Part shown: positions 7,356-63,916 of the stretch, piece after piece
How the letters are laid out: each line of letters opens with the position of its first letter
Numbering within the stretch: the first letter of the stretch is position 1
From: Trichoplax sp. H2
Taxonomy: Eukaryota
Assembly: GCA_003344405.1 (NCBI GenBank)
Contig: NOWV01000157.1
Coordinates: 1-64,000, forward strand
Length of the DNA: 64,000 nucleotides
Direction: 5' to 3'
Notes under the pieces: model-generated
Seen by the model: the letters and a program-made list of their open reading frames with translations, nothing else
What the model was told of the DNA's origin: nothing
Databases searched by the model: none
Position numbers and translations under genes: made by a program

Positions 7356-10300
7356 AAAGTCGTCTAATTCGATCAATATATTGTTCTATTTACGGTGCCT
7401 GGATAATTTAGTGTAAGATATAGAATAATATATTGTTTGTATATGATTTTAATCGTAAATATTAGTCTTACTTTTAATGGATAATTTATATTAAGGTGTA
7501 GAAAATACTATCCTCTGTGTATAATTTTAATCGTTAAGTAATAGTCTTACGGAGTATGATAGAATAAATGCTAATAAGGTATACAGTGTTTTATGATTAA
7601 GAATTGATAATGAGATTTTTATAAGAATTTTACAGTTAACAGTTCTAATCAAAATGTTATGCTGTGTGCAATCGATTATTAGTAGAAAGAAACAAGAAAT
7701 AAGCTGCAAGATTAGATCAAATAATAGGGTGCAAGGCATGGATGCCAATAAATACGTATATGCTAGCGGTTTGCACGGCAGCTAAGTAATTCCAAAAACT
7801 TAGCTTTTTCTTATCTCAAAGCTGTTATTAAAATTAATATTTTAGTACGAATAAGCATTTATAAAGTACTTAATATAAAGGAAAAAATAATCATTAATCT
7901 TTTTTGAATCCTATGTAGAGATACTGGCAATTACAAAGGCAATAAAATTAAGAAAAAATCAATATCTTAGTTTGATATATCGTTGATTTCTAAATTTTCG
8001 ATGTGCAGCTTTTACTTACGGTTTATTTTTTGATAGTAAAATCTAATTTAATACTCAGAATAAAAAAGAATTTGGATTTTTAGAAGAGATAAATGCTGAA
8101 GTAAGTTTTGTTATAGTCTAGACTTCTCTGCAGGATGAATAATATCTGATAAATGAAATAACTTCGGTAAATCTGCTATATTTAATTTTTCTTCATTCTA
8201 ATTAATGATTAATATAGCGATTAATTTATAAATGATCCTTAACATAGAGCTCAATCCTAAATAATCCTACACAATAGATAATATGAGATTATGTCAATTT
8301 ATAGTCCACGTCATCTATCATATAATTATAAATGTGTACTGAAAACTTAAACAAATAATAGCCGGAATACTTGCCGGTAAATGAAATTTTATTTCCTTTG
8401 TATTTGATTTTAGGGCGTGAAATTTACCGATGCTATAATGATCTCTGAACAATTTGTCTTTAGATTTATTTCTTTATGTACGTATCCTAAAATTAAGCCA
8501 TTTTCTCTGAACGCGGTATACTAAGCCATAAATTGTAGTAATTATAAACTATTATATGAATTAGACTAACAAAGGGTTGGAATCAACCCAGTCATCTTTT
8601 ATTTTATTCGTTTTCTTTGCAAATATGCTCAATAGCTATCTTTCGTATGTTTTCTAAACATTGTTATCATGCAGTGTTTTGTCCGTTACTATAAAATGGA
8701 AGGATATTATGTAATAGCAAGGTTACCACACGAATCTATTTCTAACTATAGTAATGAGCATTTGTTTTCAGTAGATTTACGATTCAAAAATAGATTGTAA
8801 GAAGAATGAATAAATTGGTAATCTATTTACATCTTTCGATAATAAATTGGAAAAATAGTTTTCTCAGTCTTATTAAATTTCAACTAACTTAAAAATAATT
8901 CTGTTTACATTATCCCTTACAGTAAGTAATAATAAACTTCCATTATATTATCGAATCGCAGCAGTAAAGTGTGAATCAGATTTCTCCTAAGCTAATCCAA
9001 AGCGTTTAAGGTTATAGTGGTTAAGTTTCAACTTCCTTAAATAAAGTAGATTTCAGTAGAACATCATTAAACCAAGTGGTATGCATAAATCGAAATTTTT
9101 GTGACAGTAGAGTATTTATTTCAGAATCTGCAAATTATGGCTTCATTAAATGAAAGTAACATATTTGTTTAGGTAGCTGTATCCCCACTCCTACTCTCCA
9201 CCTCCACCAAATAAAAATGTTTTTGTATTTATATTATTATAATATTATAAAAGAAAGATAATTATAGTTCGCAGTGCAGACATTTTAAACTACCCGTTGA
9301 AGTTTCTTTACCGACGCTCGGTTTTGCTAATCTAATCAAAGAGGCGAGTGCTGCACTGTGACAACTGTAGCGTTCTAATGACTAGAAATGGTCAGAAGTA
9401 GTTTACTGTAAACAAATGTTGAGATGGAAATCTAAGAAAGAAGGCGAATGTTTTCATTTTCAGCTTGCTGTCTACCGTTGATAAAATAATAAAGATGACT
9501 CTTATTAAAAATCTGATGAAAACTTTTTGTTGAAAAGAAAAGGTCTTATAATTAAATTCTTTAAGGATACCAATTAAGATCTCCTGCAATGCTTATGTAA
9601 ATAATGTATTTAAGCTATTTAACTAAAATTGAATTATACGTAACCAGATGATAATTTAGTTATGTCATTAAATGTGCAAACAGAGTTATTTGCAGCTACC
9701 ACAGTGCTTGTCGCGACTGCTAGACTAGCGTCGCTAGATAATATTGTTCTTAAGGATTAATATCCTTAACTACGCATAGTTGTTACCGTTATCTTGTATT
9801 GCTGTACCGGTAAATGATAAATTAATGTTGTACGGTACAAGTATGTTTATTAGTCAATTGTGTTAAACTGAAAAATGATATCTCAAGAATGTTATCGCAA
9901 TGTTAGAGAAGTTATGCATATTCATGCCAATGTAAGAGTATATAAATGAGGCGCTTTTACTATCTTGGGGAGTCGGTTCGAGTGTGAATTAGTAAGTTGG
10001 TTAGTTGTAGTTAATAAAGGTCGATTTCAACCACCGATAGAAAAGAAAGGAAATTCATTTTGTTGTTGGCTCAGCAGAAATTTCGCACGCTTCCGTAAAT
10101 TCGTAAAGATCAAACTGAGTCACAACAGTGCTAAACATAATTAGTAGGCTGATTGAATGTTATCCAAATAAAATACTGTACAAAAGCAATTTATTTAGTA
10201 AATCTAATCTATTCTCACCCGAACCAAAATTAACAATGACAAACACAACCATCCCTAAACATGATAAATAAACCTACAATATTAATAGCAGCCGTTTTCG

Positions 10301-11219: not shown

Positions 11220-12580
11220 TTAATCTAAGAAAATTTCATGATTGACAATATTGCTGGTCTTGCTTTCTTTCAAAGTAGCTGGGTAAACTTTCTGACGGCT
11301 GATCAGCAGAGACTGACGGCATAATTGACAATTAAGATCCTGAAATCGAAAGATTAAGTAAGTAGTGGATCAAGAATACCGTTGAACTAGGTGAAAACTG
11401 TAACTACTTTTTAAAATTGGCTGTACGTGTCGGGCACTTGATTGATAGTGCTGATACCTGAATGCAAATACGTTTGTTACGGAAATTGATGTAAGCATGA
11501 TCTGAAGGCGTCTCTCTTACATAGGTGATAATTGAGATCCAAATGTTAAACTTGATTTCCTCAGTTTACATACCGTTAAAATATATAGTATTACGCGAAT
11601 AGAATATGCTAGAACAAAGTAGCCTAATCGTATAGATCCAAAGAGTGTGTGAATTGGTATCAGGTAAAAATCATCAATGCTGATGTTAGCATAAAAATCG
11701 ATGAAATATAGCGATCTCTTATGGGCATAAACTTAGCGAATAGTAATAATTGCTTTCGTAACAAATTTAAATTCGATAGAAATTNNNNNNNNNNNNNNNN
11801 NNNNAACAATTATTGATTGCTAACTGCCTTAATACTGCGTATAGCAATTCCACACTAATAATACTTACTTCAATTACATGACAGCTATTTTCTACTACTA
11901 GGTGCTAATCAGCATGGTCATACACGATTGTAAACAATTATTAATCGTAAACACGGAGCTACTAGCTCCGTAACACTTGATTTCCTCAGTTTACATACCG
12001 TTAAAATATATAGTATTACGCGAACAGAATATGCTAGAACAAAGTAGCCTAATCGTCTAGATCCAAAGAGTGTGTGAATTGGTATCAGGTAAAAATCATC
12101 AATGCTGATGTTAGCATAAAAATCGATGAAATATAGCGATCTCTTATGGGCATAAACTTAGCGAATAGTAATAATTGCTTTCGTAACAAATTTAAATTCG
12201 ATAGAAATTGGTCCACACAGCTTGTTGTGCTCATTGACCATTCATATTTAATTAACGAAAATGTACCATTGTAATTGAAGATATGTTGATAGTAGGGAAT
12301 GTAGTAAGAATCTGATATAGTTAGAATTAAAACATAAACACTTCCTAAAAATCAAAAACTAATAAGTTAAATAACAGCCTAACGGAAGGATTTTAAGACT
12401 TATTGTGGGCTGCTGGCGGTACTCTAGTCTTGGTATGGAACTTTTATTGGTAATCGACTCTGAAAATATATAAATATTAAGAATAAGATTTAAAGGGGAA
12501 CCAACCATTGCAATCAACCATGCTAGCGAACGTAGAGAATCGATTTCAATGAAAACCGAGTATCTACTAATATTTGACAT
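11220..12580 (-). pseudogene. Degenerate LGR-like GPCR paralog
   Basis: N-terminus MSNISRYSVFIEIDSLRSLAWLIAMVGSPLNL matches the paralogs, then frameshifts. The TM3-TM4 segment appears to be missing. The TM7 region (~11335-11395) is recognisable. Interrupted by gap 11785..11804 and by the duplication 11551..11784 = 11976..12209. Confidence 0.8.
11805..11975 (-). mobile_element. 5' end of an LTR of the TGTTACGGAGC family, inserted in the GPCR pseudogene
   Basis: Ends in AGCTCCGTAACA (reverse complement of TGTTACGGAGCT, the start of the LTR at 47461), exactly at the duplication boundary CTTGA. The empty site is at 11551. Confidence 0.7.
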
Positions 12581-15500
12581 TTTTAAATTGGAAATTGAGC
12601 CATTTGATAGTTGTTTAATTGTAATCAGAGTACGTACATAGCCAGTCGTTTATGCTAAGTCGTAGCATACAACGTATCACCTATACATATCTTATCTTCC
12701 AATACTGATCTAGAAGCGGAAAAAGTATAGATTAATTAATTATATGATAAAGCATTGAATAGCGCAGCCATCTACAATTAATGGCGGCGTCTGTGTATTT
12801 CAACTTTTATCGAATTTTTACGACTTATTCAAGCTTTTGTACCAGTTCGCTCGAATAAGTAAAATATAAATATTAATGCGTTTTTATAACATAACGGATA
12901 TTACAATCTTATGAAAGTCTTTTATTGACGACTATTTCTATGCCATTAAGGCTATAAATATTTATTCCGAAGATACCATACTGTATTATTAGTTGGTGAA
13001 CGATTATAGAAACGCAATTATGCATAAAGTACGCGTATAATTGCTATCGTTGTTTGTGTTCAGAAATTATCGCGGAAGTAATAAAAAATGTTAATAATTA
13101 CGTCACCGTATAGAGATTGTTATTTAGTTTGTTTGCTGCATCAGGGTATCCTGTAGATGATCCAGTATAGCGTATATCGCTCAATATTACTCATGTTATC
13201 TAACGGAAGTACTAAAAATTTGCCACATATATTTCCTTACGAAAATTTTAGGCTATAGAATTGATATTTTACCGAAGTGAGATTAGAATCAGGTTATTCC
13301 AGAATAGTTTGCTAGTCTTGTTACCAAAACATATTAAAATCTCCTCACATTATAAAAAAATTTATTTCATAGCCCGAAATGGAATAAAAATTAAAGTTTT
13401 TCAAAAGAGTAATGAAATAAAACGTTTTATTCGCATTAATATAAACGACAGTTCTTTCATTTCTTAAAAAATGTGGGCTGTACGTCAAGTAAGCAATAAC
13501 TTTTACCTTTCACTTCTAGATACTATTTCGCTGCTGATAGAGCAGTCCACTCATATTTTTAAATTGAGATTAAGCGCACCGCAAGATCCAGTGCAGCATT
13601 AATGTAAGCACGTATAGTAAGCATTTTCTATAGTTTAGTAATTTGGTTCAGTATTCTATAAAGGAATTTTTAGCTATCACAGTTAAAGTGTAAATGTGCG
13701 AATCTATTTGTAGCAGTAATAATAATGAACATTATCTGAAATAGTTTTTTAGAATTAAATGATATTTAAGATGCAAATGCTAATCTTAATTTCATTCGCA
13801 TTTATTTTTCTCTATATCAACAAGACTTCAACAATAGTATATGCTATCGTGCAGTAGCCTAACTTTATAAATACTACTACAACGTGAATTTATGTTAAAT
13901 AATACCTACTGAGGCACAGGATTCGGTAAAACGTGAAGTAATATGCCGATCGAAGTTGAAAACAGGCTAAGCTACATGATAATTCCCATTATTGCAGCAA
14001 GACCTATAATCAATACCATAAGAGTGATAAATTGAGCTCTTTTGCAGTATGTTTTCTTCTACTTTGTGAATGGGCAGTAAAATAAATCGATCGATACCAA
14101 TACAAAAAGTTAACCATGCTAGCATAAATAAATAAATACTTGCTCGAAATTGAGCTATGTCACATCTTGTACTGGTTGACTATTCATTCTTAATTAAAGT
14201 ACCGTTTAAACTGTAAAAATATAGATAGTAACGAGTATAATAAGAATTTGATATCGCGAGAATTAAATATAAGTACAACACAAAAGATTATAAATCAGTA
14301 AGTTAAGAACAGTCAAATGGACGAACTTTTACGTGTAATGAGGAATAGCGACGACGTTCTTGTCTTATTATTGGAAATGGATTTGCTGCAGACTTCGTAT
14401 TGCATAGCAAAAAAGAAGTAGATTTAGCAGCAATCTGAATAATATGATAAATCAAGCCTCCAGACGTAGAAATCAGCTTCAGGGAAAATGGAATCCTGAC
14501 TAAAATTATGTTTATGTCTATAGAAGAAAGAATAATTGATAAATGTATAGTTAAAACTACGGTACATTCGATAAAAAGAAGGTGGTGAAAAATAAAGTAC
14601 AGCATTCTAACTTTTTATATATTTCCTTAGAATAAAAAATCTTATTTACTACGTAACTATGATTAGACCACGTACATAATTTATTTCAGACTTATTTATC
14701 AAGTGTCACAAATTCAATAATACATTCTTTTTGCGATAGTCTAATAGTCGTCCTGAATTAGTACTATTTAGCTTAAGAAGTTAATTATAAGTTTTAATTT
14801 CTAAATCTCGCAGCAGCAGCTGGCATTGAAAATACAGAAGCTGTAGTCAAGTACTAAATACATTGGAAGGAGATAAAGCAATTCCTTCAGCGACAGAGAT
14901 GAAAACTATCGTATTAAGTGAATTAGTAAAATTTAGCCAACATTGAAGCAGTCAATTTGTTTTGCTGATTACGTATTCATAATTTTTTGTGAGGATATCA
15001 AAATCATATGTACTAGTACACTTAATACATAATTTGACGATACCAGAAAATTATATCAGGTCGTTTTATATCTCTGATCCAAGATTTCCTAGTTGTAATT
15101 TACAGTTATTAACAATTATTGACACAAAGAATCTTCGCGAACAAAAGCTATTAATATTCTATTCTTTAGGATCGGATACCTCCAACTTAACGGTATTGAT
15201 ATTCCATACATGCAAATTCACCAAATACTCTATCGTAGTTAAGATGATGAAAGAACATCTTAAATAAACTACTACTCTAAACCTATTCTAACCTATTGTG
15301 TCTACTCGCAATTATTGTTGTAATTTGAAGTTTTATATAGGATAGCCTGGTAATGTCTACGATACTCGGCATAAGCACATATCGACAGTAATAGCTACCC
15401 ATAAATGCAAAAAGTAAATAAATCTATATGATCAACATAATCGTCTATATTAATTTACCTTACTAGCTCGATTGTTTAATGTCGTAAAAAGTTCAACTCG

Positions 15501-18850: not shown

Positions 18851-19951
18851 TTAAACCTCTGTAATTACTATATTTTCATTTTGGCTAAATTTTGTTTCAC
18901 TAGAAACAATCGGAATAACTTTAGGACGGAGGCAATTTGATATCGGAGATTGACAATGTAGCTGACTTCTAATATCGTGAAATCGAAAGATTAGGTAAAT
19001 CAAAGGATCAAGTACTGAATTAGAATAAGGAAGTAAAGTAATTATTTTTTGAAATTTAGATATTTGGGTTGGTGTTCCATTTAGGAAACTAACCGCTGCC
19101 GAAGTCGAAATGAAAAAAAAAGCAAATATATTTGTCGAGGCAATGAGAATGAGCACTATCTGAAATCGTCTTTCAAATGTAGACGATAATTGAGATCTAA
19201 ATATTAATCTTGACTTTCTTAGTTTCCATATTATTCCCGTATACAAGCCAGCCGTAGTAGAGTAGGCGAGAATATAATAACCTAGACAGCTAAATGCCAC
19301 TATGGAATGAATTGATGTCAAATAATATTCGCCAAGACATAAATTACGATAAAACTCAAAATAGTACGCAGACCTAAGGTGAAAGTAAGCGAAATTAAAG
19401 ATGATAGTTCCGACTGACATAGTAACTCCTAATATCCATGATATTGTAGTTATAATTTTGGCTCTTTTTACTGTCAATTTCCAATTGCTATGTGGATAGG
19501 TAGTTAAAATAAAGCGATCAATCCCAATACATAAAGTTAGTGTTGCTGCCATGAATAAATTCAAGTTTGCTAGAAACTGTGCTATGCCGCATGTTACGCT
19601 AATTGACCATGCATTCTTTATTAACGAAAAATTAGCACTTGAACCATGGATGTGTTGATAGTAGTGAGTATAAAAAGAGTCCGATATGATGAGTATAAAA
19701 ATATAAATACAACCCATAAGATCGCAAAGAATTAAGTTAAACAATAACCATACAGAAGGATTTTTATGAGCAATCATTGAATGATGACGGTGTTCTTTAT
19801 TTCTTACTAAAAATTTATAAGTAATTGATTCCCATATCGTGTAGCTGATAAGAAATAGATTTAACGGCAATCCAATCAAAGCGATACACCATGCTATCGG
19901 ACGCATTACATCAACCTCAAGGAAGACAGAATATCGGCTGAAATTACCCAT
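18851..19951 (-). CDS. Intronless class A GPCR, LGR/relaxin-receptor-type 7TM domain, copy 3 (366 aa)
   Basis: Intact ORF colinear with copy 2, with the same motifs (NLILCDLMG, GIDRF, FYRNLCL, LPYSNSVLDPLIY). Confidence 0.9.
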   Translation of the reverse strand: MGNFSRYSVFLEVDVMRPIAWCIALIGLPLNLFLISYTIWESITYKFLVRNKEHRHHSMIAHKNPSVWLLFNLILCDLMGCIYIFILIISDSFYTHYYQHIHGSSANFSLIKNAWSISVTCGIAQFLANLNLFMAATLTLCIGIDRFILTTYPHSNWKLTVKRAKIITTISWILGVTMSVGTIIFNFAYFHLRSAYYFEFYRNLCLGEYYLTSIHSIVAFSCLGYYILAYSTTAGLYTGIIWKLRKSRLIFRSQLSSTFERRFQIVLILIASTNIFAFFFISTSAAVSFLNGTPTQISKFQKIITLLPYSNSVLDPLIYLIFRFHDIRSQLHCQSPISNCLRPKVIPIVSSETKFSQNENIVITEV

Positions 19952-22900
19952 TTTATTGATTAAGCTTGACTTATATGATCAAAGTATTATTCTATTTATG
20001 GTATAGTGGATTACACAATGTAGGCTAAAATATAGAATAAAATATTGCCAATGTGTAATTTTAATTGTTGAATATTAAGCTTATTAAGAATAAGCGATTA
20101 AATGATTATAAGGGATATTTTAATAAAGAATCAACGATATAATTTTATTAAAATCTTACTGTATTAATATTTCTTATCAAAACTTTGACACTGTAAAATT
20201 AATCACTCGTAGAAAGCAAACAAGAAATGAGATATTAGATTAAGTAATAAGGTATAGAGCTTCGATGATAATAAATATCTCAATAGCTAACAACGGAGCG
20301 AAATAATTTCAAAAAGTCAACCTATTCGCGTCTGGAAGCTCTTATTAAAATTAATATTTAAAAGCACAAGCGATCGTTTATAATGCATATAAAGAAAAAA
20401 TTCTTGACTTGTATTTAGCGAAAAATAGATGTATGGACAATAAGATAAAAGGCAATAATAAGAGGATTAATAGAAACTATTGCTGTCTTAGCTTGATTTA
20501 TCGATAATTTCTAATCTTTTGATGCAGCAGCTTTTGCGTAAATTGTTGATCGCAAAATTTAATACTCAGAATGAGATTAATTTCGAGTATGTAGAAAAAA
20601 TAGCTCTTAACGATAGTATTTTTGTGACGAAGGGTTTTCTTATGGGATGAATAGTGTCAACTAAACCTGACAATGAATTGACTTCAGTACGTATGCTATA
20701 TTTAATTTCCTGTCATTTCAATAAGCGATAAACTTGGTAATCAATTTAAAAATGATCCGTACTATGTGGTTAAATTCTGTTTAAGCTACTACATTAGTTA
20801 ATATGCGACTGTTTATCGGATATTTCTATCCATGTCAATCACTGTAAATTTATACTGTATAGAAAAGCAAAACAAATAATAGCTATAATATCTGTCGCGA
20901 AAATGAAATTTTATTTGTATTGTATTTGGTTGTATAGCGTACATCTTTACTATAATATTCTCTACATAATCTGTCTTCAGATCTATTTTTTTATTCATGA
21001 ATCCTAATATTATACCCTTTTCTATCAGCGTGGTACACTAAGCCGTTAAATTATAGTACCTATAACCTATCACGTGAATTAGCTTGTGAATCAGGTTAAC
21101 GAAAGTCCCAAGTTAGTACAAAGATCTTCTAGTTTACTCCTTTCTACGTAAATCACTTAATGACGCTATTTTTGCTGATAATTTCCAAATATTACGTAAC
21201 TTGCAGTGCTTTGCATATTATTATAAAGCGGAAGAATATTATGTGCCAGAAAGGTTGCTACAAGAGCCCGTTTCTAAGCAATGTATTAAATACTTGTTTT
21301 AATAAATTTACCCCTCAAAAGTGAATAGTAAGATAGTAGTGCCTTTTCCGCTATAAACAGGAAAAAATTTCTCAAAGTCTTATTTAAATTTAGTGAAGTT
21401 AAAAATATTTTTGTTTGCATTGATCATTAAAGTAGTAATAACCTACTATTTTATTGTTCACATTCAGATACTATAAACTATCGATTATTAACTCTTCATT
21501 AAACTCCGATTTGCCTAATTTAGTCTAAGACAGAAGAGTACGGTACTGTGATAGCTACAGCTATATGGCGACTAGAAAAAGTTAAAATGAGTTTGCTGTA
21601 GACAAATGTTAAGAAAGCAATGTGACACACGAAACTCGTAGTTTTAAATATTAGATTACAATCTACGGTTGATAATACAGTAAAGATGACTCTCGTTACC
21701 CATCTCTTCAAATATAGTTTGTCTAAAGGAATTATTATGTCTTAAACTAAATTCTTCATGGATACGGATTAAGATTTTTAAAAATATTTACCTAAATAAA
21801 AAATTAAGCTATTAAACTAGAATTGGATTACAAATAAGCAAACGACAATTTATAGTTTTGACATTTATTTGCAACTAGAATTTTTCGAAGCCAGTACTAA
21901 ACATGATTAGTAATCTGATTGCAAGTAGTCCAATAAAAAATGGTGTCTCAGTAATTTATTTGGCTTAATTTATTATTATGCAAGCCAAAATCAACATTTG
22001 TAAACACAGCTATCCGTAAACGTAATAAATAAATCTATAACAATTGCAGCCTACTTTCAGTTGGCCAACAATGCCAGTTTATAGATTGCTATGAAAGAAT
22101 GAGATTATCTACTTAATCATAGATAGAGAATTACGATAATCAATTATTTCAATAGCAGCTAACAATGCAACACACTCTATCCTGATAATAACCATTGTTG
22201 TTAAATTCCCATCTTGTTGGTTTATTATTTTCGATAGCCAGACTAAATCACTAGATACAACTTTAATTTCCTAATTATAGTAAATTTTAGAGAATCTATT
22301 GTATTAAAAATTAGGAATACCATAACAGCAAATTTTTAACATCCTGTTCAGCCCCTTACAGTAAATAACTTTTACAATTTAGTTAAAATAAATTAGTTTT
22401 GTGATTTCTATCTTATAATCGAATAGCCGATTTAAGAAAAATTCATTAGTCCTATCGGTCGACCTTGATAAAAGTTAAACTAGATTTACGTAGCACATAA
22501 AAAGTAGTACAGTTCGGTAGTAAAGTAGTTCAAGTTAATTTCAAGTGGGGGAATATTAAGAAAACTTAAGATATTGTACGTAATTTTTTTGATAATTTGG
22601 TTTGTTTGAGGCAGTAATCTGGCCTTTATTGTAATTCTTTTAAAGTTACTTAAAATTTAAATAAACTGGCATTTTCCTCTATTTTAGCGAAAAATTGCAA
22701 AGTGGCTATTCGTTTTTAGTAAAGTTAATGCTTTTCTCATTTTTATTTCTGCTATTGAAAGATGTAGAGTTATATTGCTCACGCCTAAAAGCAGGAATAT
22801 CGAAAAGAAATTATTCCGATATAAGTTACTGACCAAGTAATGCAAAAGCAATTTATTTAGTATGCATGCATCTTTGAAACACAAATGAAATATGGACGGA

Positions 22901-24699: not shown

Positions 24700-25344
24700 G
24701 CAACTCAACGTATAAGTCTTTGATTGTGGTTTTCATCATATGTAGTCACAACAGAGGTTGATGGTCAGTAGTATTTGCAAAGGGACGTCCTTCCAGATAC
24801 ATTCGGAAAGTTCTTATTTCCCAAATCACTGCTAGCCACTCTTTCTCTACCGTAGAATAATTCTTTTCGGCTTCAGTTATTTCCTACTAGCTTAGACCAC
24901 AGGGTGTTACCATGGTGTGATTGCGTTAATACTGCATCAATGCCTAGATTTGAAGCATCGGTTTGTAAAGCAATTGGTAACTCTTCGCCGATGACCCATA
25001 ATATTGGCGCTTTTACTAAATGTTGTTTTAATAATCTAAAGGCTTTATCGCAGTCTTTTGACCAGTTTACCTTGTTAGATTCTTTCTTAAAGATTTGGCG
25101 CATCAAAGGTTCGGTTATCATGGCATAATTAGGGATTAATTTTCGATAATAGCCAGTCAATCCAAGAATGCCCTAAAGTCTCTCTTAATTTTCGGCTGCG
25201 AAAATCTTTCCACTGTTTCTAGTTTGAGCTGTTTCGATCGTGCTATCCCAGAGCCAATCTCGTGCCCGAAGTACGTTACTGTTCCGTCTGCAAACGTACA
25301 CTAAATCTACTTAATTATCATGTACGGTGCTTTGCTCCGTAACA
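24700..25344 (-). mobile_element. Internally deleted Ty3/Gypsy LTR-retrotransposon remnant (LTR start joined to RT thumb/connection and RNase H)
   Basis: Minus-strand translation gives VTYFGHEIG, (F)LGLTGYYRKLIPNYA, LQTDASNLGIDAVLTQ, YSTVEKEWLAVIW and TDHQPL, with frameshifts. About 44 bp of LTR start (TGTTACGGAGC) precede it at 25344. Confidence 0.85.
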
Positions 25345-25866: not shown

Positions 25867-26454
25867 TGTGACGGAGCTCGCTCCGAAATGAATAATATTT
25901 TGATCTAAAATGTGTAACAATATTATTATGGAGGTTGCCGATCTCGGCAACAACCTAGTTGTTAATTGAGTTTTGTTATTAATTATCCTAGTAATATACA
26001 GCGTGGATATGGTGTTAGCAATTAAGATGTCAAGCTGTAAAGATTATTATGTTAGTTAATAAGGTGCTAATTAATAATATTAATTTGTGACAAGTGATAA
26101 GTAACACTCGAACTAGTCGAATCTATAGTAAGCCTGAATGGATCTGTATTGCACATTCTATAATTTAATATGAAAGATTAGTACCGATCTTATTTGTGTG
26201 ATATATGAAACTGTATATAAGCTTGATCATTACTTTTTAATCTGAGTTCCACGAAGGCTACGCTAGAGTACACTGGTACTAAGTTGCAATAGCTGGTAAT
26301 AAAATATTTAATAACCTAAACCTATCGTTGGACTCGTTGTCTATGGTATAGGAATAAGTTAGTTTTCCTTTACTGAGGATCTCCGGAGTTAGTCGGGGAA
26401 CCTTAAGAGTAGATAGACTAGTTTAGGTACGTTCACGAAAGTTGTTTTGTGACA
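25867..26454 (+). mobile_element. Solo LTR, 588 bp, 5-bp TSD CTTTC
   Basis: TGTGAC...GTGACA termini. CTTTC at 25862..25866 and 26455..26459. TATA-like and AATAAA motifs inside. The 3' half matches 47730..48092. The empty site is visible at ~27028. Confidence 0.9.
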
Positions 26455-26520
26455 CTTTCATAAAACGTTTTTATGGAGATGAGAGCTGAGACAGTTTCAA
26501 NNNNNNNNNNNNNNNNNNNN

Positions 26521-30270: not shown

Positions 30271-31069
30271 GTGTAGCTTCAAAGATGCTACCTCCCGCTA
30301 ACAGTGATAATTACGTAACGTAATTCTTAATATTAATAGTAAGATAAGATCAAAGGACATTCATCTCTAATAATCATATTAGCGCATTATCTATTAAGCA
30401 ATTGTTCTGTGACAATAGCTGCAACAATAAAATTAACCTCGCAGTTTATGATTTATACTCTTACTATTGAACATTAAATTATCTATTGTGATTCCATGCA
30501 ACCAAGGTTTGACGTAATAATAAAATATGTTGATGACTTAATTTTAGATTAGACTTAATTTTACATGCTGTCAAGTTATTTAACGATCAATTCTTCAATC
30601 CCACCTTACTGTATTCAATCTAGACATCATATCTTACAAGTTACTTCCAGTAATAGTCGCTACTTTGGGTACCGTATAGGACTTAATTTATCTTTTCCTT
30701 TTCCAACTTTTTTCTCTATTCCGATTGAGCTTATTAAATCGATCATCTGTAAGTGGTAATAGATAATTCGTTGTAACATAATCTCTACAAGATTGATAAT
30801 TTTGAAACGTATGTCTGTAAGTGCTAGTAAGGATTAACCGTTGCTAACATATTCTTAACAATTTAAGCGTATTATTTCATATTGCCACATTAATTATCGG
30901 AGATGAGTAAAAAGGGTTAGTTTTAGTGGATTATGTGTGTTATCTTATAGAGAAGTGTGACAAGGCATCTTCTTACATTTGTAATGGATAGATTAATATC
31001 GATTTTATCAGTTTATCAACTGATGTCTGTTCTTTCTTAACCAGAACTTAAATTTATCAAGCAATCAAG

Positions 31070-34000
31070 ATGTTAATGCTACATTGTATTCTGATTTTAT
31101 CTTGTATGATGCAACAAGGTAAGGTATCTACTTACAATCCAACAATATTTCTATCTATTACAAGATTACAATGTATTATATGCAAATGTTATTCCATTAC
31201 AGTATTTGGTCTACCATATTGCTATGGATTTGTTTCGGGCACAATCTGGTTCGATGTTAATGTAGCAGGAAAAAATGAAACAACGGTCATCAATTTCTGC
31301 CGATCAACATTCTACTTTGGTAGTAACTCCAATACAGGTGGGCGTGAGAATATTAACAGATACAGGCGTAACCTATTTCTAATTTATTTAACTCCTTAAA
31401 AACAGCAATTAATGATGGTAGAACATTTATCACCAATAGAGTCCGTTAATTATATAATTATTGATCAGCTTTTATTTCTTCTCTATCCTCATCTTTCGTT
31501 ATCTTTACCTACCTACATCATGGCTAACCTTCTATCGTGATTTTTATTTATTCATTTCATGGCAATGCAACTGATTCTTAACTAAACATTTGACTTTGTA
31601 GTTATGAATTTGAGTAGATGATAGAGGATCCTTAGATGTGGATTGAAGCAGATAATCTGGTTATTTTTGTTATTATAATGTCAATAATTCTCCGTTAAAT
31701 TTAATTTGTTATTTACTTAGCCCTATGACGTCGATGATGATCAAAATCAATTTTGAAATTCTTTACATAACTGTCAATGCAATTTATCAATCTATTTATA
31801 CGATATCAATAGCGTAGGAGTCCAAATGTCAGTAGATGATGAAAAGAAAGTTGCCGTAAATAACGTCCTAAATAACTACGATCAAAGGTGCTAATGGCCA
31901 CAAATTATCCCATCATTAGTGCTGCATTTAATTCTAATTATTCATATCATTGCAGATGCTTAGAAAGAAGAGTTTGAAACTTTACGCTTGTTTCTTTAAG
32001 CTGGAAAGATCGCTTTTGCATTCTTACATCATACCCAATTTCTTGAAAATAGCTACCGATTGAGTTATAGCATCTTAGATTTTAGTATCAGCTGGTCATC
32101 CTGAATAGGTTATAAACAAAGGAATACATTTAGCTACAGTAAGCTATCTATCATCCCCCTTCAACGGGATTATGCACCACTCTAAACGGTACTTCAAGAT
32201 AATATGACGTATGCAATTACTTCTATTCGCAAAAATTTTAATTGTTAGCCTAAACTCTTGGATATTATGGTTCACTTTAATAACCCCAATAGGAAATTAG
32301 TGAGATCGTTCTTGTACAAATGCAAAGCATATGGCTATCGAAATGGTAAAAAATACAATATAACAAGAACTGACATAAAATGCCAAAGGGTTACTTTTTA
32401 ATTAGCAGCACTAAATTTGAAAATGCTCAATTATAAATGCAAACTTATAAAGTGTGATCATCATCAGCCTCTAATCCAGTAATACTACCGTATCAGATTA
32501 AATAGTATGGTTCTGGATTATCAAGATAGAAAGGAACAGGTTATAATCAGTGAGAATAAATCTTGATGATAAAAATTTCAAAGATGAAAATTACTGGTAC
32601 TATGTACACTTTAAATTTCAATAAATGACATTAGATCAGATAGTAATTGTAAAATGCGATTCTTCTAACAAAAATCGATTAAAAGCATATTTGCTATGGA
32701 AGGAGTGCTAAATTAGCTACAGGTTTTCCTTGTATTTTAATTACGGAATTAAATTAGATAGCTCAATAAATTTAGAGTGTTGCGGAGATAAGTTCCTGAG
32801 TATAAAATAACTGTCATATTTGCTTTCAACTATAGCCTTCAGAATTCAATCCAAGTTCATCCGCATCGCTCTTCATATCTTCTACTATACCTTTGAAATT
32901 GATTACATAGCACCGAAGTGTATATTAAATCGTCAAAGTCTGAAAACTAGTTTGGAAGTAATTTAGTCATAAAAATGTACATAGTAAAGAAAGAAATTAA
33001 AATTATTTATTTGCCTATTACAGAATGAATCTCGATATAGCAGTACCACTTTCTAAGTCTTGAAGTGTATTCTAAGTTATCATGCTATTAATTTTATCCA
33101 TTTAAAACTAAATTTTAGCACCATCGATCATAAAATGTCGAAATTGTAACTTGAATGAATGTATTTCATTAACTATAAAGTAAATCTTATTCAATTTCGT
33201 CTGTAGAATAATCCAATACCATATTATAACCTAAATTTGATCTTTTTCTACTGTGTGAAAATCCTACCTTATAATTAAGTCAACGTTATACTCATATCTT
33301 GAATTAAGGAATGACTGATAAAAAATATTAAAATCATAACGGAGCAGACATTTTGCCCGATCTCCTTTACTAAATATTTTTCATAAGCATTTATTTTATT
33401 CGCTTAATACATAGTGCTGAGTGGCTTGGCAACACTGCCATGTCGAAAGACAGGAAGTGAATGGTCCTTAGGAAACGAGACAGAAGTAAATTTATGCGGA
33501 TGTCGATTCACAGCCATGCAGCAACTACACCAGTCTGTTCAGGTTGTACAAAATAAAATTTCAATCTGTTTCAAGCAATTTAATGCGTTGATATAACTCA
33601 CCAAAAATTAAGTTGTGCTAATAGATATGGATATCGATCCTATTTTTATTGTGCAGAACCTTACCAACACTACGTTGGATAGCTCCGTTTTCTCCTCTAG
33701 CATCGAAGTGGATGCAATCTTGCAAAATTCTTTCTATACCCGTCCTGTGAAAGTATTCGGTAAAGCACTTCATGTTGAAGATGCAATTGAAACAGTCTAT
33801 CGCTTATTTCAATTACATGTTGGTCGTACATATCAAGTGAATAAGACCAAGATATGGACCGCTAATGTAGGTTAATTTGTATGCTACTGGCATGATGCTG
33901 AATCATAATGAACTTGAACTAATCTTACACCCTTTGATCTTCATATTTTATTGATCAAAAGTGCTTATATCAAGCTGCAAGCCGAATTATCAACATAACA

Positions 34001-37000
34001 GCATGCAATAATGTATGTAAAATACATTACGCAAATTAACTCTAATATACTGAATCATATTCAACTGCGATGCTTTTATATTTTTGCACGGTAGATACTG
34101 TAAGCTGGTTCGTGTTAAACTATTTCATTTGATATTCTACATTATGAACGAGTAAAGTTTATTTTTTTTGTTAATAATAGACCTCCTTAATGAGTGCAAT
34201 TCTTCCAACGCTAAAAAATGATATCCAAGATCAGGTACGATGTTGTCAAGACTACCAGCAAACTCAAAAAATCGCCAATTGTCCGGCTAAAGAAGGTAAA
34301 GCCATCAATCATGATTTATAATCATGTTTTCTGTGTGAATGATTGAACTTTTCGCATGTTAATTGATGTTGCTAATGATCAATATAAACTATTAAGCTTC
34401 AATGGTTCAAGAAAAGAATTAAATCAGGGCATCATTAGTAAATTAATAAATAAGTAGGTGAATTAATTAAAATAGTTAAACCTACAAGCTCTTAGTAATA
34501 TATCCTGCATTATTAAGTGGGTAATCTTATCCTTACACAATCGTCTATTAAACGCTCTATAAACCTTTTCTTTATTGTAATCGTAAGTAAGATGTGAAAG
34601 AATTAAGTCTAATGTCGTCTAATATTAGAAAGCTATAGCTTAGCTTTTTAATTTACCAACATTTTATCACGCTGTTACTGATGGTATTTAATTTAAAGAT
34701 TTTAAATCTCTTCCAATATTCGCGATGAATTTTTTCAGTACCATACTATAGAATTTAAGCATGAAGTTGCTTTTACATTTCCTATGAGTAAGAATGCCTT
34801 GCTAATTTATTCGTAATATTCTCTCGCAGCAAAAAGCTAGAGCAGGCTAAGATGCATAATGGCTAGTTTAAGTGCTTCTAATGTAGAAGACCTAGTAGAG
34901 ATCAATTATAAAATGTTCAATATGCTGGATCACACTAGCATACATGATGGCTACTTTAAGCACTACTAATGTACATGGCCTAGAAATGACCAATTTATAA
35001 AACGACTTAGCCTGAGATAGGTAATCGCAACGAGAAAACATATTACACAATACTAATGGGCGAATCTTGTAGAATTTGCACATAATGCATTCCTTGATAT
35101 ATCTACTGCTCTGGATCCCTACTTTAACTGATCCGATCTCGATTGAAATTTGATTTTGATTTTCTATTGTAGAAATTGAAGACACATGCCCGACGAATTA
35201 TGCTCGTGGTTTCTTATGGGAACCAACCAAAGTTAATGTTACAATCAAAAGTAACAGGAAGGAATCTTGCAAGTTATTTACTAGCGATATAGAGCCAATG
35301 GATCAGAATTTGCATGTTCATGGTAAGTTCAATTAGATATCTTAAGCAGATATAGCGGAAAGGCAGTATTACTCTCAGTAAGAATTCTAATAATTCCATA
35401 AACACAGATAGCTACATTCACTTTGAAAGTAGCGTTCATTCAAGTTCAGTAGTTTATTATTCTTCTAGTATATTTCATTATGTATATAATTATATTAGAT
35501 TGCAATCTAGGATTAACTGAGTCATTCCTCTAAAGAAAATAGTTTCTCTTATAAAAAAAATAAACATTAGTAGATTACCAAGTGAAATGGCATTACCGCG
35601 ATATACACCCTCCTCTCTTCTCATTTATACTTTAGTCTATTCTTCATCCTTGATTTAATGCATACCAATACTATGCTTCGCCATCATTGACATTTTTTCA
35701 ACCCACCAATGTTAATTATTGATAAATAGTTAAGCACTACCAGGTTCAACGTTTCTATTCTCATACTTACATTAGACTTCTATTCTCTCTTGTTTTTAGG
35801 CCATGTAAGTAGAACATGTACATCTAACAGGCAAGCCAGCTCTGTATGGGCTTCTGTTAATGGATGTAAATGTTTCGTGACAGCAATGACAGATGTATTG
35901 GCTAAAGTAAGAACTTGTTGTATTTTATACATTAAAACATTCTGATGTTAACCTGCGGGGTTCTTGCCAATTGCCCATGATTTAATATTAATTTGCCTTT
36001 CTCTTCTCATGAATTAATTATAATAGATGAAATTAACCGTGGCCAAGCAATATACCATGCACTACTTGAGCACACTAACTAGTTTTGTTAGAAAATATTA
36101 CAAGTATAACACAGACTTTAACATAGCAACGAATGCTCAAGAGTTACTTTCTCAATCTCAGCAACAGCAGACGGATTTACAAAGCATTTACTATACTGAA
36201 TTTACTGGCGTAAGTCCTCCATTCTATACTAATTTACTTGCAATAGACATTTATATCAATTCTTTTCATCTGCCAGATATTGCAATAGATAAGTGAAATA
36301 GTCTATTTCAGATCGAATTTAATATCTTGGTACTATTTATGCTTGTATTAAAGTGCTTGGCAATGACAACGATGGACTTGATCAGTAATTGGCATTCTGA
36401 CAAGAATTGTCCGGCACCGGTAATAAATTTTAAGGACTGTATTGAGTGGATTATTGCCCTTGAATTTCATAGTCATTCTCTTTTCCTTACAACGATCTAT
36501 AGGATAGCTCCAAGGTAGCCATGAACAACACCTTCTACAATGCATTAGCCACACTACTCAACATGCCCAAAGAAGATGTACTCAGTAATCCTGCTTATTC
36601 ACTGGAAAATAATGATACTCTGACAATGGCCATCCAAAATATTAGCATGATGGAGTTAGGTCGATCCGATCCTTGCCCATTAGTTGGAACTGTTGTTCCA
36701 TTACCAGCATTTAAGCCAGGATCAGGAATAACATCACCAAATCCAACAACTGCAACCACTCCTATGGTACGTAAGCAATTCTTCTATGATTGACTTGATT
36801 AACTTACAGTCCTATCATTGTTGCTATCGCGAAAAATGATGATAATTTTTTTGTCGCTACTACTTATGGATACTTACCAATAGACGTTGAATTTTAAGTA
36901 CTTCTTTCTAGATGCAGATAGACAAACAATCTAGCTACTTGTTACCAGTTACCAGTACTTGTTACCAGAGGGTTGATTTACTTTGCTCGCTAGTTTTATT

Positions 37001-37311
37001 TTTAGCTGGATGATCGATGAATTAAAATAGCTACACAGTAGAAATGCAGCTACTTTTACTACGTATCGCCTTAACTTAACACTTGTAGTGAGATTGTTCT
37101 TTGGCTACTTTCTCGAGCTAGAAATAGTCTAATTTATCCCATTTATCTTCTCATGATGCTTTCGATTTTATATTCATATTACCTCTAGAATATCATCACG
37201 ACTTCAACTTCAAGTACAGGAACAACTTCTTCTTCGATAGGAAATTATCGCCAATCACTAGCAATCATTTATTCTCTTGCTCTGTTGCTATGGTGCAGTC
37301 TACTATTATAG
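31070..37311 (+). CDS. Predicted 526-aa secreted, probably GPI-anchored protein with two HormR-like + helical (GAIN-A-like) modules and no 7TM
   Basis: GT-AG, phase-consistent exons: 31070-31118, 31203-31337, 33415-33542, 33657-33866, 33962-34012, 34181-34295, 35173-35322, 35800-35906, 36027-36209, 36354-36419, 36503-36766, 37189-37311 (1581 nt). Hydrophobic N-terminus; C..G..W....C...G..T..C....W.....C pattern occurs twice; S/T-rich stalk; C-terminus ends in SLAIIYSLALLLWCSLLL*. Confidence 0.7.
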
Positions 37312-38919
37312 AATAGAAAATAAAAAAATCAATAAGCTTTTATTTAAGATCGATTAATCACGTTTAAGTGGATTCAATCATGGAATTATTCTGTATCACA
37401 TTTATTTTCAATATAATTTCGCTGTATATTATTATGATTTTCTATTAGTAAGAACGTTATCAATGAATGAGCCGTGTAATGGATATAAACTGGATTCGAG
37501 TTATTTTGATTGCAAGCATGGAAGTGCCATTACAGCAATGTTACCGGTATTGACAGCTAATCCTCATCAAATTGTCTACTCATATTTCTCTTATGTATTA
37601 ACCATGATTTCAATTTAGAATACGAGTAGTTTCATAAAACGCCTATCAGGTAGCGCTATTTGCACAACGATTTCAGAGCTAACGAGTAGAAACTTTTCGT
37701 ATTCAAGATCTGATTATATTATTCTTCCAACAAGGACATTTTGACTACTCTAATGTGCTCGATATTGAGCAACCAATTATCGTATACGAGTATAAAGGTC
37801 GGTTCTAATTCTATTCTATCTGCATAATATATGACTTCTTTATTTTTTTTTATTTATTCCTTATTATTATTGAATATTCAAATAACACTTTCATAGTCTA
37901 CATCTATTATTCATCGCTAATATGACGGACAAAATTAAATCTATGTATATGATTGAATTCTTCATCAACTAGCTATCTCGACACTATGTAAAACGACACC
38001 TAGAAATGATGATGATGGTGATGCAAAGTTTCGACTAGTTGGTTATAACTTAATTATTTAGCAATTTGCGCCATCTATAACTTTTAACATACCATATAAG
38101 TACGCTTGTAATCTTTCACATATGGTAATAAACTTTATATATAACAAAATATGGTAAATTTATCCTTTCTGACTACATATCTATATAAGTTAAATATTGG
38201 GCGATTTGCACTCGAGCAATCTCAGGTCGATCATGTAAGTAGTTGACTACACAAAATATCCTTTCGCTCTATTGTGACTCAATTATTGGGCAAATATAAT
38301 CTTTCCATTACCTTTATGATACAAATCATGCCAGCTATCGTCGTTTACGTCTGTTGGGCATGACTGTGTAATGTAAAAAATTTGCCCATTGCCCTAATTT
38401 GCAAACACTCAGCCACGGTAGCCTAGTATATGCAGTGGCTTCTTCAAATGGTACAGTAGTAGACAAGTGTAGCCAGCAGCTAAGTTCATGACCAGATGGA
38501 GCAGTAAAAAGTTAGTAAGGTCCCTGGACTCATTTGAAGTCATTGGTTTCGTCCTTGTTACCGATTGAAATTGGTAACGAGGAAAATTAAACTACTACAG
38601 AAAACTAAAACTACAAGCCTACTGTCAGCTTTCTCCTGCCCGACACCTACCTACAATACTATTTCAGATACTGACAATCTTCTATAGCCAAGGAGGAAGG
38701 TAAGCGTAGAGTCAAAAGGATAGGTGTGGGTCCATAGGAGCACTATGCAGCAGTCCTATAGGTCATAGGCAAAAATCTGCGATTCCATTCGTTACATTAT
38801 GATGAACTGTTAGCAATTATTAGTCTATGATACTGTTCATATGATTCCATCCCATAGCGTAGCGCAGGAAGTGAGAAAAGTACTGAGAAAAGGTATTTCA
38901 GGGTCTCGCTAAAGTCTCC

Positions 38920-59017: not shown

Positions 59018-59433
59018 TCTGACCATACAGTACGTACTGCACTTATACTGTACACTGTACTGTATCCGACTGGACTCTTGGCCAGTCGGAGTTCACTGTC
59101 TGCCTGTCTGTATTAGAACAATACCAACGTCATCAAAGCCACAACGTCTTTTAGCAAATCACTTAGGCACGAAGGCGCTAACCACTGCAAAAGTTGCTGC
59201 GCTCTGGACGCCAGTTTTACGGAGGACGATCTATTTGTTCTCTATTTATTATGATTATAATTTAACAATTGTTATAGGTAGGAATACTGTACTGCAACTG
59301 TGCTGTAGTGTTGTTTATTAGGGGTGATTATATTATTGTATTATTAACTCTTACTGTACTGTACTGCAGCCATCAGTATTACAAACGATCACTTCACGTC
59401 ATCGCAATCGAACCGCTTGGCTTAGCAATCATC

Positions 59434-62847: not shown

Positions 62848-63916
62848 TTATGCAGTAGCTGCGATATCTTTCTTAAGGGTTCCCTAAAAGAGAATAATGT
62901 ATAGCACACGTCACACTTACAATGTTCAAATAATAACTTCAACTGTTGCAGGTAACTTACCATAAAGGCTTTCTTTTCATCAAGAGTTTGGAACCTTCCA
63001 TGGCCAAATTTCGATGTTGTATCCACAAATTTCAAATTAATCTTCTCCAATGCGACACGGCTAGTATGGACACGGCGAGACTGAAAGAAAGGAAGCATGG
63101 TGAATCAGAAATGCCATTCTTGAGCTACTGTTCTGTACTGTACATCCAATAAGTGTTAGTTTTACCTTTCGTAAAGTGATGACTCTTTTCTTAGGACCCA
63201 TGACACATCCTTTCAACATTATGTAATCCTGTGTAACTACACCATAATGAGGGAATCCACCCTAAAAGTGAGAAATATATGTCGAAATTTTAAAATAGAC
63301 ACAAATAGTAAGTGCCGTCAGTAACGCTAGCTCTTCAATTTACCACAGGAGTAATTTTCTTGACAGTCGTATCATATCCTGTACTAGCGTTCTTTTCATC
63401 TTTTCCAGAACCAATACGGTAAATCTTCTTGTTAACTTCAGTACGATGATGGTAACCAGTTTGACCAGCGCGAGCAATAGAAAAGCCAACACGACTAGGA
63501 TGCCAAGAGCCAATACATGCAACCTTTCGTAAACCTTTATGCGTCTTCCGTGGTAATTTCTTCGTTCCCCATCGGAAAGTAACGCCTTATCACCAAAGTA
63601 GTAACATTATGAATTGTTTTTAATATTTCGATCAAGTAGATATCATGCTATCATCATTAGCGAAGGTAGTAATATGAGAAATTATCTAATATTTATGACA
63701 TATTACAATATGACAGGGCATTGGAGTACCTCTAAATCCTTTTCCTTTAGTTGCACCAATTATATCAATCATTTCATCTTGGCTAAAAACGGTATCAGCT
63801 GGTACTTCTTTTTCTAACAGAGCACGGGCATAGTCTACCTTTTCAACGATATTACCTCCGTTAACTTGGATTTCCATGACATGGGATTTCTTTTGTCGTA
63901 AAGCGACCAGTCTTAT
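62848..63916 (-). CDS. RPL3: 60S ribosomal protein L3 (uL3), 3' exons; gene continues beyond the window
   Basis: Exons translate to [51 protein letters not shown] and [11 protein letters not shown] (stop 62848..62850). Confidence 0.97.

What the first reader, a model, noticed from the sequence alone, without database searches (positions are those of the whole stretch)
31070..37311. Receptor-less, GPI-type protein built from two tandem adhesion-GPCR-like HormR + helical modules
Seen: 12 phase-consistent exons give a 526-aa ORF with an internal duplication mirrored in the exon structure. Pairs: CYGFVSGTIWFD..FC vs CPTNYARGFLWEPT..SC; GLATLPC..SEW..CGCRFTAM vs GHVSRTC..SVW..CKCFVTAM; CLYQAASRIIN vs CLAMTTMDLISNW. 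These are followed by an S/T stalk and a terminal hydrophobic tail with no cytosolic residues. Established: this Cys/Trp spacing resembles the HormR domain, which in adhesion GPCRs precedes the helical GAIN subdomain A, then the GPS and a 7TM. Inference: a free-standing surface co-receptor or decoy with doubled HormR + GAIN-A and no GPS or 7TM. I do not recognise this architecture.
Basis: partly seen in the sequence, partly recalled or inferred. Interest (0 to 1): 0.8.

Follow-up and report, generated by a model that had tools for sequence, protein, structure and literature searches.

The report
Receptor-less twin of GPS-less adhesion GPCRs
This is a real, spliced gene of a placozoan (a very simple marine animal) that encodes only the outer part of an unusual family of adhesion-type receptors that lack the self-cleavage module, ending in a lipid-anchor-like tail instead of the seven-helix signalling part, so it probably tunes its receptor sister rather than signalling itself.

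Summary
Observation confirmed. The 12-exon, 526-aa frame is real: RNA contigs match it to the base and run unspliced past the stop; no 7TM exons follow. This placozoan genome holds five paralogs with the same doubled ectodomain joined to an ADGRL-like 7TM, none with GPS, Stachel or GAIN subdomain B. The closest, G130, is 32% identical with all 10 shared intron phases equal. The window gene is most likely its 7TM-less twin, with a GPI-type tail (by pattern only). Module 2's HormR is established. GAIN-A rests on a paralog's predicted structure (TM 0.66 to ADGRB3) and matching exon phases, not on sequence. The duplication is significant only at family-profile level. Function is inferred: a membrane-tethered co-receptor or decoy for G130; binding, anchor and co-expression are untested. 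Nine literature searches and two scan look-ups found no description. New variant of a known kind; interest 0.62.

The parts
30522..30748 (+). Untranslated 5' exon (start approximate; alternative donor after 30915)
   Evidence: Joints 30748->31047 in X4 and X10, 30915->31047 in X6; GT donors and CCAG acceptor; start inferred from the length of the X4 contig
31045..31118 (+). Exon 1: in-frame TAA at 31049, ATG at 31070, hydrophobic signal-peptide-like start (about aa 1-19)
   Evidence: hydropathy; no SignalP available
31203..31337 (+). Exon 2, module 1 HormR-like part a (C23, W32, C49), phase 1 to 1
33415..33542 (+). Exon 3, module 1 HormR-like part b and first helix (C71, W78, C89, C91), phase 1 to 0
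   Evidence: 128 nt as in G130
33657..33866 (+). Exon 4, module 1 helices, phase 0 to 0
   Evidence: helical but low confidence; confident 5-helix bundle in paralog G9
33962..34012 (+). Exon 5, module 1 helix with C175 and C189
   Evidence: Joint to E6 in X10
34181..34295 (+). Exon 6, last helix of module 1 and Cys linker (C212, C213, C225), phase 0 to 1
   Evidence: 115 nt as in G130 and G9; canonical counterpart 103-118 nt in 5 of 6 models, same phases
35173..35322 (+). Exon 7, module 2 HormR part a (C235, W245, C262), phase 1 to 1
35800..35906 (+). Exon 8, module 2 HormR part b and first helix (C286, W296, C302, C304), phase 1 to 0
   Evidence: 107 nt; same intron position and length as the canonical C241 gene
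36027..36209 (+). Exon 9, GAIN-A-like helices 2-3 and start of helix 4
   Evidence: pLDDT 77-92 per ten residues, dipping to 60 at 301-310
36354..36419 (+). Exon 10, GAIN-A-like helix 4 (C377, C395)
   Evidence: 66 nt against 60-69 nt in six canonical genes
36503..36766 (+). Exon 11, helix-6 equivalent, two further helices and C456 with GxxVP (family cap where GAIN-B would begin), start of stalk
37189..37311 (+). Exon 12: S/T stalk, GPI-type signal (small residues 500-502 at 37228-37236, polar spacer, hydrophobic 510-526 at 37258-37308), stop; sits in the slot of the paralogs' TM1 exon
   Evidence: stalk 469-503 is 19 of 35 S/T
37312..38119 (+). Unspliced 3' UTR (polyA-like hexamers at 37319, 37934, 38127)
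   Evidence: X10 contig to 38033, X4 contigs to 37492 and 37551-38119

Best explanation
A cell-surface glycoprotein that is the ectodomain-only paralog of a placozoan family of adhesion-type GPCRs. SHOWN: the family (G130, G100, G85, G7 in tandem on G000:C852; G9 on C382/C146) has two tandem HormR-plus-helical modules, a short stalk and a class-B 7TM, without GPS, Stachel or GAIN-B. The window gene has the same ectodomain exons and stops where TM1 would be. INFERRED history: an ancestral HormR-GAIN-7TM gene lost its five GAIN-B exons; the HormR-GAIN-A block, bounded by phase-1 introns, was duplicated in tandem; after a later duplication the copy next to G130 in the tree lost the 7TM exons and its last exon became a GPI-type signal. 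INFERRED mechanism: it cannot couple to G proteins. It keeps G130's disulfide-locked binding surface on a glycosylated stalk, so it most likely captures the same extracellular ligand as G130 or pairs with G130's ectodomain, and sets the gain of G130 signalling (co-receptor or decoy; release from the anchor would give a soluble form). My odds: origin by 7TM loss 0.85; GPI anchor 0.7; helical part is GAIN-A 0.75; acts in G130's pathway 0.55.
For: Paralog G130: 32% identity over 519 aa, E 1e-91, 10 of 10 shared intron phases equal, 4 exons of equal length, open 779-aa chain into 7TM exons. Four more 7TM members; P0006 and P0009 hit Pfam 7tm_2 at 1e-49 and not GAIN or GPS; the best PDB match of the 7TM is ADGRL2, 1e-42, against CRFR2, 2.7e-19. 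The five 7TMs form one side of a 100/99 branch against seven canonical models; window and G130 join at 100/100. All 18 ectodomain Cys are invariant in 5 of 5 members aligned (G100 left out, its model being uncertain). Pfam GPS: 59 matches in G000, none on C194, C852, C382 or C146. GPS regex in 0 of 6 and Stachel regex in 0 of 5, both present in control P0011. HormR to TM1 or tail is 195-221 aa against about 280-330 in canonical receptors (PMC12716839). No family 7TM exons downstream: score 46 against background 48-50 and positives 432 and 177. Module 2 of G9 matches HRM+GAIN-A clusters by features (0.92, 0.91, 0.91) and ADGRB3 by structure (TM 0.66, 218 residues). Foldseek ranks BAI3 and BAI2 HormR-GAIN first to third for the G9 model, E 0.037-0.17. 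Canonical genes share the phase series. Constraint: 7 of the 10 listed coding variants are silent against 22% expected, P 0.0015 (69 variant rows were not shown). Four fragments from other sources are 54-60% identical to this gene and 19-41% to G130.
Against: The helical parts show no sequence-profile similarity to this genome's canonical GAIN-A (E 0.5-0.6, no better than 25 shuffles). The window protein's own model is confident only over about 305-465 (mean pLDDT 53). Against it Foldseek finds nothing at E<=0.001, and BAI3 scores Z 7.5 (rmsd 4.4, 125 aligned, rank 17) among unrelated helical bundles up to Z 9.4. The atlas found nothing for the whole P0008. The tail is not detectably derived from TM1: pairwise z 0.4-0.9; profile score 2.0 against 13.5-32.8 for true TM1s and up to 3.6 for other helices. 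Both window and G9 are long branches, and the tree is only midpoint-rooted: a root on the window branch would allow one gain of 7TM. At 32% identity the gene may have left G130's pathway.
Confidence: 0.58

Rival explanations
1. Same origin, but now independent of G130: a GPI-anchored adhesion molecule or trans-ligand that uses the inherited fold for its own partner.
For: Only 32% identity to G130 and a long terminal branch (1.86 against 0.61); it lies on another contig than the C852 cluster; orthologous fragments at 54-60% show long separate evolution.
Against: Conservation with G130 runs along both modules without a gap; this does not show a shared ligand.
Confidence: 0.25
2. The helical domains are not GAIN-A but an unrelated helical bundle fused behind a HormR.
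For: No sequence-profile signal; both bundles match generic solenoids first; phase 0 is the commonest intron phase, so the series 0,0,0 is weak on its own.
Against: TM 0.60-0.66 over 207-221 residues to ADGRB, ADGRL, LAT-1 and ADGRF models; exon lengths and helix boundaries match exon by exon; position directly behind a HormR in an ADGRL-like receptor.
Confidence: 0.2
3. The product is not GPI-anchored: it is a tail-less single-pass protein, or mainly a secreted form by intron-11 read-through as in the public model P0008.
For: The 19-residue window ending at the C-terminus scores 1.97, enough for a helix; P0008 ends without an anchor.
Against: Spliced E12 is in X4 and X10; three small residues, a 7-residue polar spacer and a 17-residue tail with nothing after it fit the GPI pattern (pattern recalled). 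Intron-11 cover came only from X5, which looks like DNA.
Confidence: 0.2
4. A decaying truncated duplicate or an annotation artefact.
For: Loss of the signalling half is how receptor pseudogenes often look.
Against: Open frame, splicing in three studies, excess of silent variants, 18 of 18 Cys kept, orthologous fragments at 54-60%.
Confidence: 0.03

Closest known systems
HormR-GAIN adhesion GPCRs (ADGRB/BAI3 4DLO, ADGRL/latrophilin 4DLQ)
   Same: HormR followed directly by a helical bundle of GAIN-A size; in the paralogs a 7TM closest to ADGRL with the exon phases of this genome's canonical receptors.
   Different: No subdomain B, GPS or Stachel; module doubled; two extra helices and extra Cys; the window gene has no 7TM. 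PMC11697300 (passages) treats both subdomains as required for a valid GAIN, with B the conserved one.
Drosophila Cirl 1TM and GPR126 1TM isoforms (10.1101/2023.01.11.521585, abstract; PMC13197933, passage)
   Same: A membrane-tethered aGPCR ectodomain without 7TM that binds the 7TM form and tunes signalling: the model for 'works like'.
   Different: Those are splice isoforms of one gene with a single helix and an intracellular part; this is a separate, diverged gene with a GPI-type end and no GPS.
GPS-less aGPCRs: human ADGRA1; 12 of 40 sponge Adhesions (PMC11697300, PMC4302439, passages)
   Same: Class-B adhesion-type 7TM without GPS.
   Different: ADGRA1 lacks the whole GAIN; the sponge cases are short or possibly mis-modelled. 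Retention of subdomain A without B, in tandem, is not described in the passages seen.
Secretin-family (class B1) receptors
   Same: HormR plus class-B 7TM and no GPS (paralogs).
   Different: About 200 residues lie between HormR and TM1; the 7TM is far closer to ADGRL than to CRFR2.
GPR124/RECK (PMC11213517, abstract); secreted Frizzled-related proteins (recalled, not looked up)
   Same: An aGPCR ectodomain acting without its intracellular part; a free-standing gene for a receptor ectodomain.
   Different: Unrelated domains or a full receptor; analogy of logic only.
Public records P0008 (RDD38873.1), P0001 (TRIADDRAFT_53957), P0006/P0009/P0010, P0007
   Same: Partial gene models of this gene and of two paralogs.
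   Different: Named hypothetical, uncharacterized or 'ADGRL2' by automatic annotation; none has the last exon of this gene.

Membership tests
Adhesion GPCR (window gene) | Class-B 7TM domain | tested here: not met
   Stop in E12 and unspliced 3' UTR; no 7TM exons downstream
Adhesion GPCR (window gene) | GAIN subdomain B beta-sandwich with GPS | tested here: not met
   The five canonical GAIN-B exons have no counterpart; Pfam GPS 0 matches on C194 among 59 in G000; regex negative; only about 50 S/T/P-rich residues follow C456
Adhesion GPCR (window gene) | GAIN subdomain A helical bundle | tested here: inconclusive
   For: paralog; paralog. Against or neutral:
HormR (PF02793), module 2 | Cys-Trp-Cys...Gly...Cys-Trp-Cys pattern, about 65 aa | tested here: met
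   hhalign 95.5%, P 1.4e-8 to six canonical HormRs; shared intron at the Gly; BAI3 4DLO E 5.6e-4 by family profile. Pfam alone is below its cut-off: E 0.049 here, 3.5e-4 in P0006
HormR (PF02793), module 1 | Same pattern | tested here: inconclusive
   Cys align to module 2, but E 0.06 to canonical HormRs, no Pfam hit, pLDDT under 50
Adhesion GPCR (the five paralogs) | Adhesion-type class-B 7TM | tested here: met
   (G9); models of the others; tree
Adhesion GPCR (the five paralogs) | GPS autoproteolysis site and Stachel before TM1 | tested here: not met
   0 of 5 by regex, control positive; no Pfam GPS on their contigs
Secretin family (paralogs) | HormR next to TM1 and secretin-type 7TM | tested here: not met
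   195-221 aa gap; ADGRL2 1e-42 against CRFR2 2.7e-19
GPI-anchored protein | N-terminal signal peptide; omega site, spacer and terminal hydrophobic tail | tested here: inconclusive
   Hydropathy and pattern fit by eye; no SignalP or GPI predictor available
GPI-anchored protein | Anchor shown biochemically | not testable with these tools
   Needs PI-PLC release or mass spectrometry
1TM/7TM heteromer partner (Cirl type) | Ectodomain-dependent binding to the 7TM form | not tested
   No complex prediction was run: no database record of spliced G130 was in hand

The most novel reading that the evidence does not exclude
HormR plus GAIN subdomain A is an autonomous, phase-1-symmetric exon cassette that folds and works without subdomain B. 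Placozoans use it, doubled, in a clade of uncleavable, Stachel-less adhesion-type receptors that are switched by soluble ligands in the manner of secretin receptors, an independent parallel to the adhesion-to-secretin transition. They also evolved a dedicated GPI-anchored gene copy as the family's co-receptor or decoy: a gene-level version of the Cirl 1TM/7TM pair.
Probability: 0.27. Interest if true: 0.82.

Novelty: new variant of a known kind. Interest (0 to 1): 0.62.

Why it matters
In the papers seen, GAIN subdomain B is the conserved core and A its variable support (PMC11697300), and the function of the HormR in adhesion GPCRs is called unclear or unknown (PMC12716839, PMC11697300). A natural receptor family that kept HormR plus A, doubled it and dropped B, GPS and Stachel is a ready-made test of what HormR and subdomain A do without cleavage or a tethered agonist. 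Its receptor-less paralog is a natural soluble-type bait for finding the ligand, and would extend the 1TM/7TM partner idea from splice isoforms to separate genes in a nerveless animal. The reach found so far is narrow: every ectodomain relative is from Trichoplax records or unnamed fragments.

Tried and rejected
Pfam on ten single exons: nothing above cut-off. Homolog searches: exon 11 found only P0001 among 87 candidates; the ectodomain profile found only P0001 among 4,031 and missed its own members P0006 and P0007, so it is insensitive; the 7TM region gave 2 hits among 2,617 at E<=1e-30; phmmer over 1.84 billion representatives gave 7 hits. These show no non-placozoan ectodomain relative but do not exclude one. 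phmmer of P0008 against PDB: 0 hits. The ectodomain profile's best PDB hit was BAI3 at E 0.15, next to chance cGAS hits. Atlas with the whole P0008: nothing usable. Foldseek on both models: nothing at E<=0.001. VIA on the G9 model listed no GAIN entry in its 50 rows; six unrelated bundles appear in both VIA lists. The JGI metagenome scan for the diverged ortholog's last exon found nothing among 247 stretches, so it is open whether that ortholog also lacks the 7TM. Tail-from-TM1: tested, not supported. C276 is a canonical GPS-bearing receptor and C334 an HRM gene outside the family; C852:106000-124000 holds no member (score 85). Several exon fragments were misplaced by the aligner and were mostly left out of the alignments folded; a few misplacements remained. 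PMC5551434 (passages) gave no soluble-receptor precedent. Literature searches without a description of this gene or family; most subscription papers are not in the library and no supplements were read, so GPCR catalogues in supplements may list these genes. Expression of the paralogs was not tested.


Full report
1. Observation. The window is G000:C194:1-64000, a 94.9-Mb genome at about 32% GC. Exon 11 is 99% identical to a Trichoplax adhaerens record, so this is a placozoan. I laid 4 of 20 listed runs. X6, X4 and X10 (three studies; only X6 is on record as RNA) list the first two joints, and X10 lists E5-E6 and E11-E12; 14 joints were not displayed. Contig lengths close the gap: 1,148 nt between E3 and E12 in X4 and 884 nt between E3 and E11 in X6, both exactly as modelled. 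X10 runs 720 nt past the stop unspliced. X5 showed no listed joint. There is also an untranslated 5' exon, and an in-frame stop lies before the ATG. Seven of the 10 listed coding variants are silent (22% expected, P 0.0015; 69 variant rows not shown).

2. The duplication. In this protein alone the two modules do not align better than shuffles (z 0.9). Between profiles of five and six family members they do (P 3e-5, probability 73.5%, 144 columns, Cys in register; 25 column shuffles reached at most 0.47%). Intron phases repeat: 1,1,0,0,0 in both modules.

3. Exon 11 had one other match in G000. That gene, G130 (C852:135264-126877, minus), has the same ten ectodomain exons in the same phases, four of equal length, 32% identity over 519 aa (E 1e-91), and then splices on through seven 7TM exons. 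Three tandem neighbours (G100, G85, G7) and G9 (split over C146 and C382) have the same plan; parts of the G100 and G7 models are uncertain. Public models of G9 hit Pfam 7tm_2 at 1e-49, HRM below cut-off, and neither GAIN nor GPS. The 7TM's best solved relative is ADGRL2 (1e-42), far ahead of CRFR2 (2.7e-19). The five 7TMs fall on one side of a 100/99 branch against seven canonical receptors of this genome. Pfam GPS has 59 matches in G000 and none on the four contigs concerned. GPS and Stachel patterns are absent from 6 of 6 and 5 of 5 members and present in the control. HormR lies 195-221 residues before TM1, against about 280-330 in canonical receptors (PMC12716839, passages). All 18 ectodomain cysteines of the window protein are invariant in the 5 members aligned. 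The window gene groups with G130 (100/100, with a long-branch warning). No family 7TM exon lies downstream (46 against background 48-50, positives 432 and 177), and the next gene is on the other strand from 42318.

4. Domains. HormR of module 2 is established: 95.5%, P 1.4e-8 against six canonical HormRs of this genome, the same phase-1 intron at the conserved Gly, and BAI3 at E 5.6e-4. HormR of module 1 is degenerate (E 0.06). For GAIN-A the evidence is mixed. For: residues 215-460 of G9 match HRM+GAIN-A clusters by features (0.92, 0.91, 0.91) and ADGRB3, ADGRB1, ADGRL3, ADGRL2 and LAT-1 models at TM 0.60-0.66 over 214-221 residues (both sides predicted, one source). The G9 fold has BAI3 and BAI2 as its first three Foldseek rows (E 0.037-0.17). 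Six canonical genes run HormR-b 107-110 nt (1>0), 147-174 (0>0), 60-69 (0>0), 103-118 in five of six (0>1), then the GAIN-B exons. Module 1 runs 128, 210, 51, 115 in the same phases and module 2 runs 107, 183, 66, 264. In the window model, helix 4 straddles the E9/E10 border and a helix opens E11, where helices 4 and 6 lie in the canonical genes (helix labels are my reading). Against: the helical parts have no profile similarity to canonical GAIN-A. The window model is confident only over about 305-465, seven helices and no beta-sandwich; it gives no Foldseek hit at E<=0.001, and BAI3 scores Z 7.5, rmsd 4.4, 125 aligned, rank 17 among generic bundles. I put GAIN-A at 0.75.

5. The tail. Exon 12 occupies the slot of the paralogs' TM1 exon (phase-0 start, 123 against 134 nt), and the tail begins 208 residues after HormR, against 209 for TM1 of G130. 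Sequence descent from TM1 is not shown. Three serines at 500-502, a seven-residue polar spacer and 17 hydrophobic residues to the stop fit the GPI pattern as I recall it; no predictor was available. Fragments P0002-P0005 from unnamed sources are 54-60% identical to this gene and 19-41% to G130, and P0002 has a T-rich stalk start. An ortholog therefore exists in a more distant source, but its last exon was not seen.

6. How it most likely works. Shown: a spliced, constrained gene for the family ectodomain without a 7TM. Inferred: loss of the GAIN-B exons and tandem duplication of the phase-1-bounded cassette in the family ancestor, then loss of the 7TM in one copy. The direction rests on the HormR-A-7TM linkage in canonical genes, not on a rooted tree. 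Inferred: lacking any cytosolic part, it acts by binding. The simplest partner is G130's ligand or G130 itself, as Cirl 1TM binds Cirl 7TM through the ectodomain (10.1101/2023.01.11.521585, abstract; PMC13197933, passage). In latrophilin the GAIN blocks the hormone site of the HormR (PMC3321182, passages), so whether these HormRs bind peptides is open. Rivals: an independent adhesion or ligand role (0.25), a non-GAIN bundle (0.2), a non-GPI anchor or secretion (0.2), a decaying copy (0.03); these are not mutually exclusive.

7. Relation to what is known. The gene is not an adhesion GPCR (no 7TM, no GAIN-B) but descends from, and probably works beside, adhesion-type receptors. The paralogs have the adhesion 7TM but fail the GAIN/GPS criterion. 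GPS-less cases in print are human ADGRA1, without any GAIN (PMC11697300, passages), and 12 of 40 sponge Adhesions, possibly mis-modelled (PMC4302439, passages). GPR124 acts through its ectodomain (PMC11213517, abstract). Nine searches returned no description of a doubled HormR-A, of A without B, or of this gene. The library lacks most subscription papers, only the first 300,000 characters of PMC13197933 are held, 10.1101/2025.09.16.676693 was seen as a listing only, and no supplements were read. The scan's own index held nothing like it by sequence or words; the 8 of 29 same-genome notes shown concern other receptors.

8. Verdict. A real feature and a new variant of a known kind. The larger surprise is the family the gene points to. 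Interest 0.62; the bold reading has probability 0.27 and would deserve 0.82.

Noticed in passing
G000:C852:66053-135264 (minus); C146:40-2837 with C382:42016-47179: Five 7TM genes with the doubled HormR-helical ectodomain and no GPS, four in a tandem cluster. G9 is split over two contig ends that both hold exons 5-9.
   Followed up: yes
window 6255-7385 and 18851-19978 (minus), pieces at 11918-12649: Two similar single-exon rhodopsin-type GPCR frames and a broken third copy between them (family by my reading).
   Followed up: no
window 4184-4492 and 5033-5341: Near-identical duplicated stretch about 850 bp apart.
   Followed up: no
window 24873-25172 (minus): Fragment that reads like a retroelement pol (RT/RNase H linker), by recall.
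   Followed up: no
window 26065-26460: Short repeated element with many loose contig ends in all four runs.
   Followed up: no
window 31362-32718 (intron 2): RNA-run contigs cover much of the 2-kb intron 2 (X6 31362-32346 at depth 19.7 against 27.1 for the spliced contig): retained intron, pre-mRNA or a separate transcript.
   Followed up: no
window 42318 to about 53300 (minus): Multi-exon gene with many listed RNA joints; KATNIP-like by recall.
   Followed up: no
window 59278-60309 (plus) and 62805-63916 (minus): Single-exon metallophosphatase frame (CPPED1-like) and ribosomal protein L3-like exons, both by recall.
   Followed up: no
G000:C334:35384-35551 (L029): HRM match preceded by an Ig-like exon, with no Pfam GPS match on that contig; not a member of this family by the module-2 profile.
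   Followed up: partly
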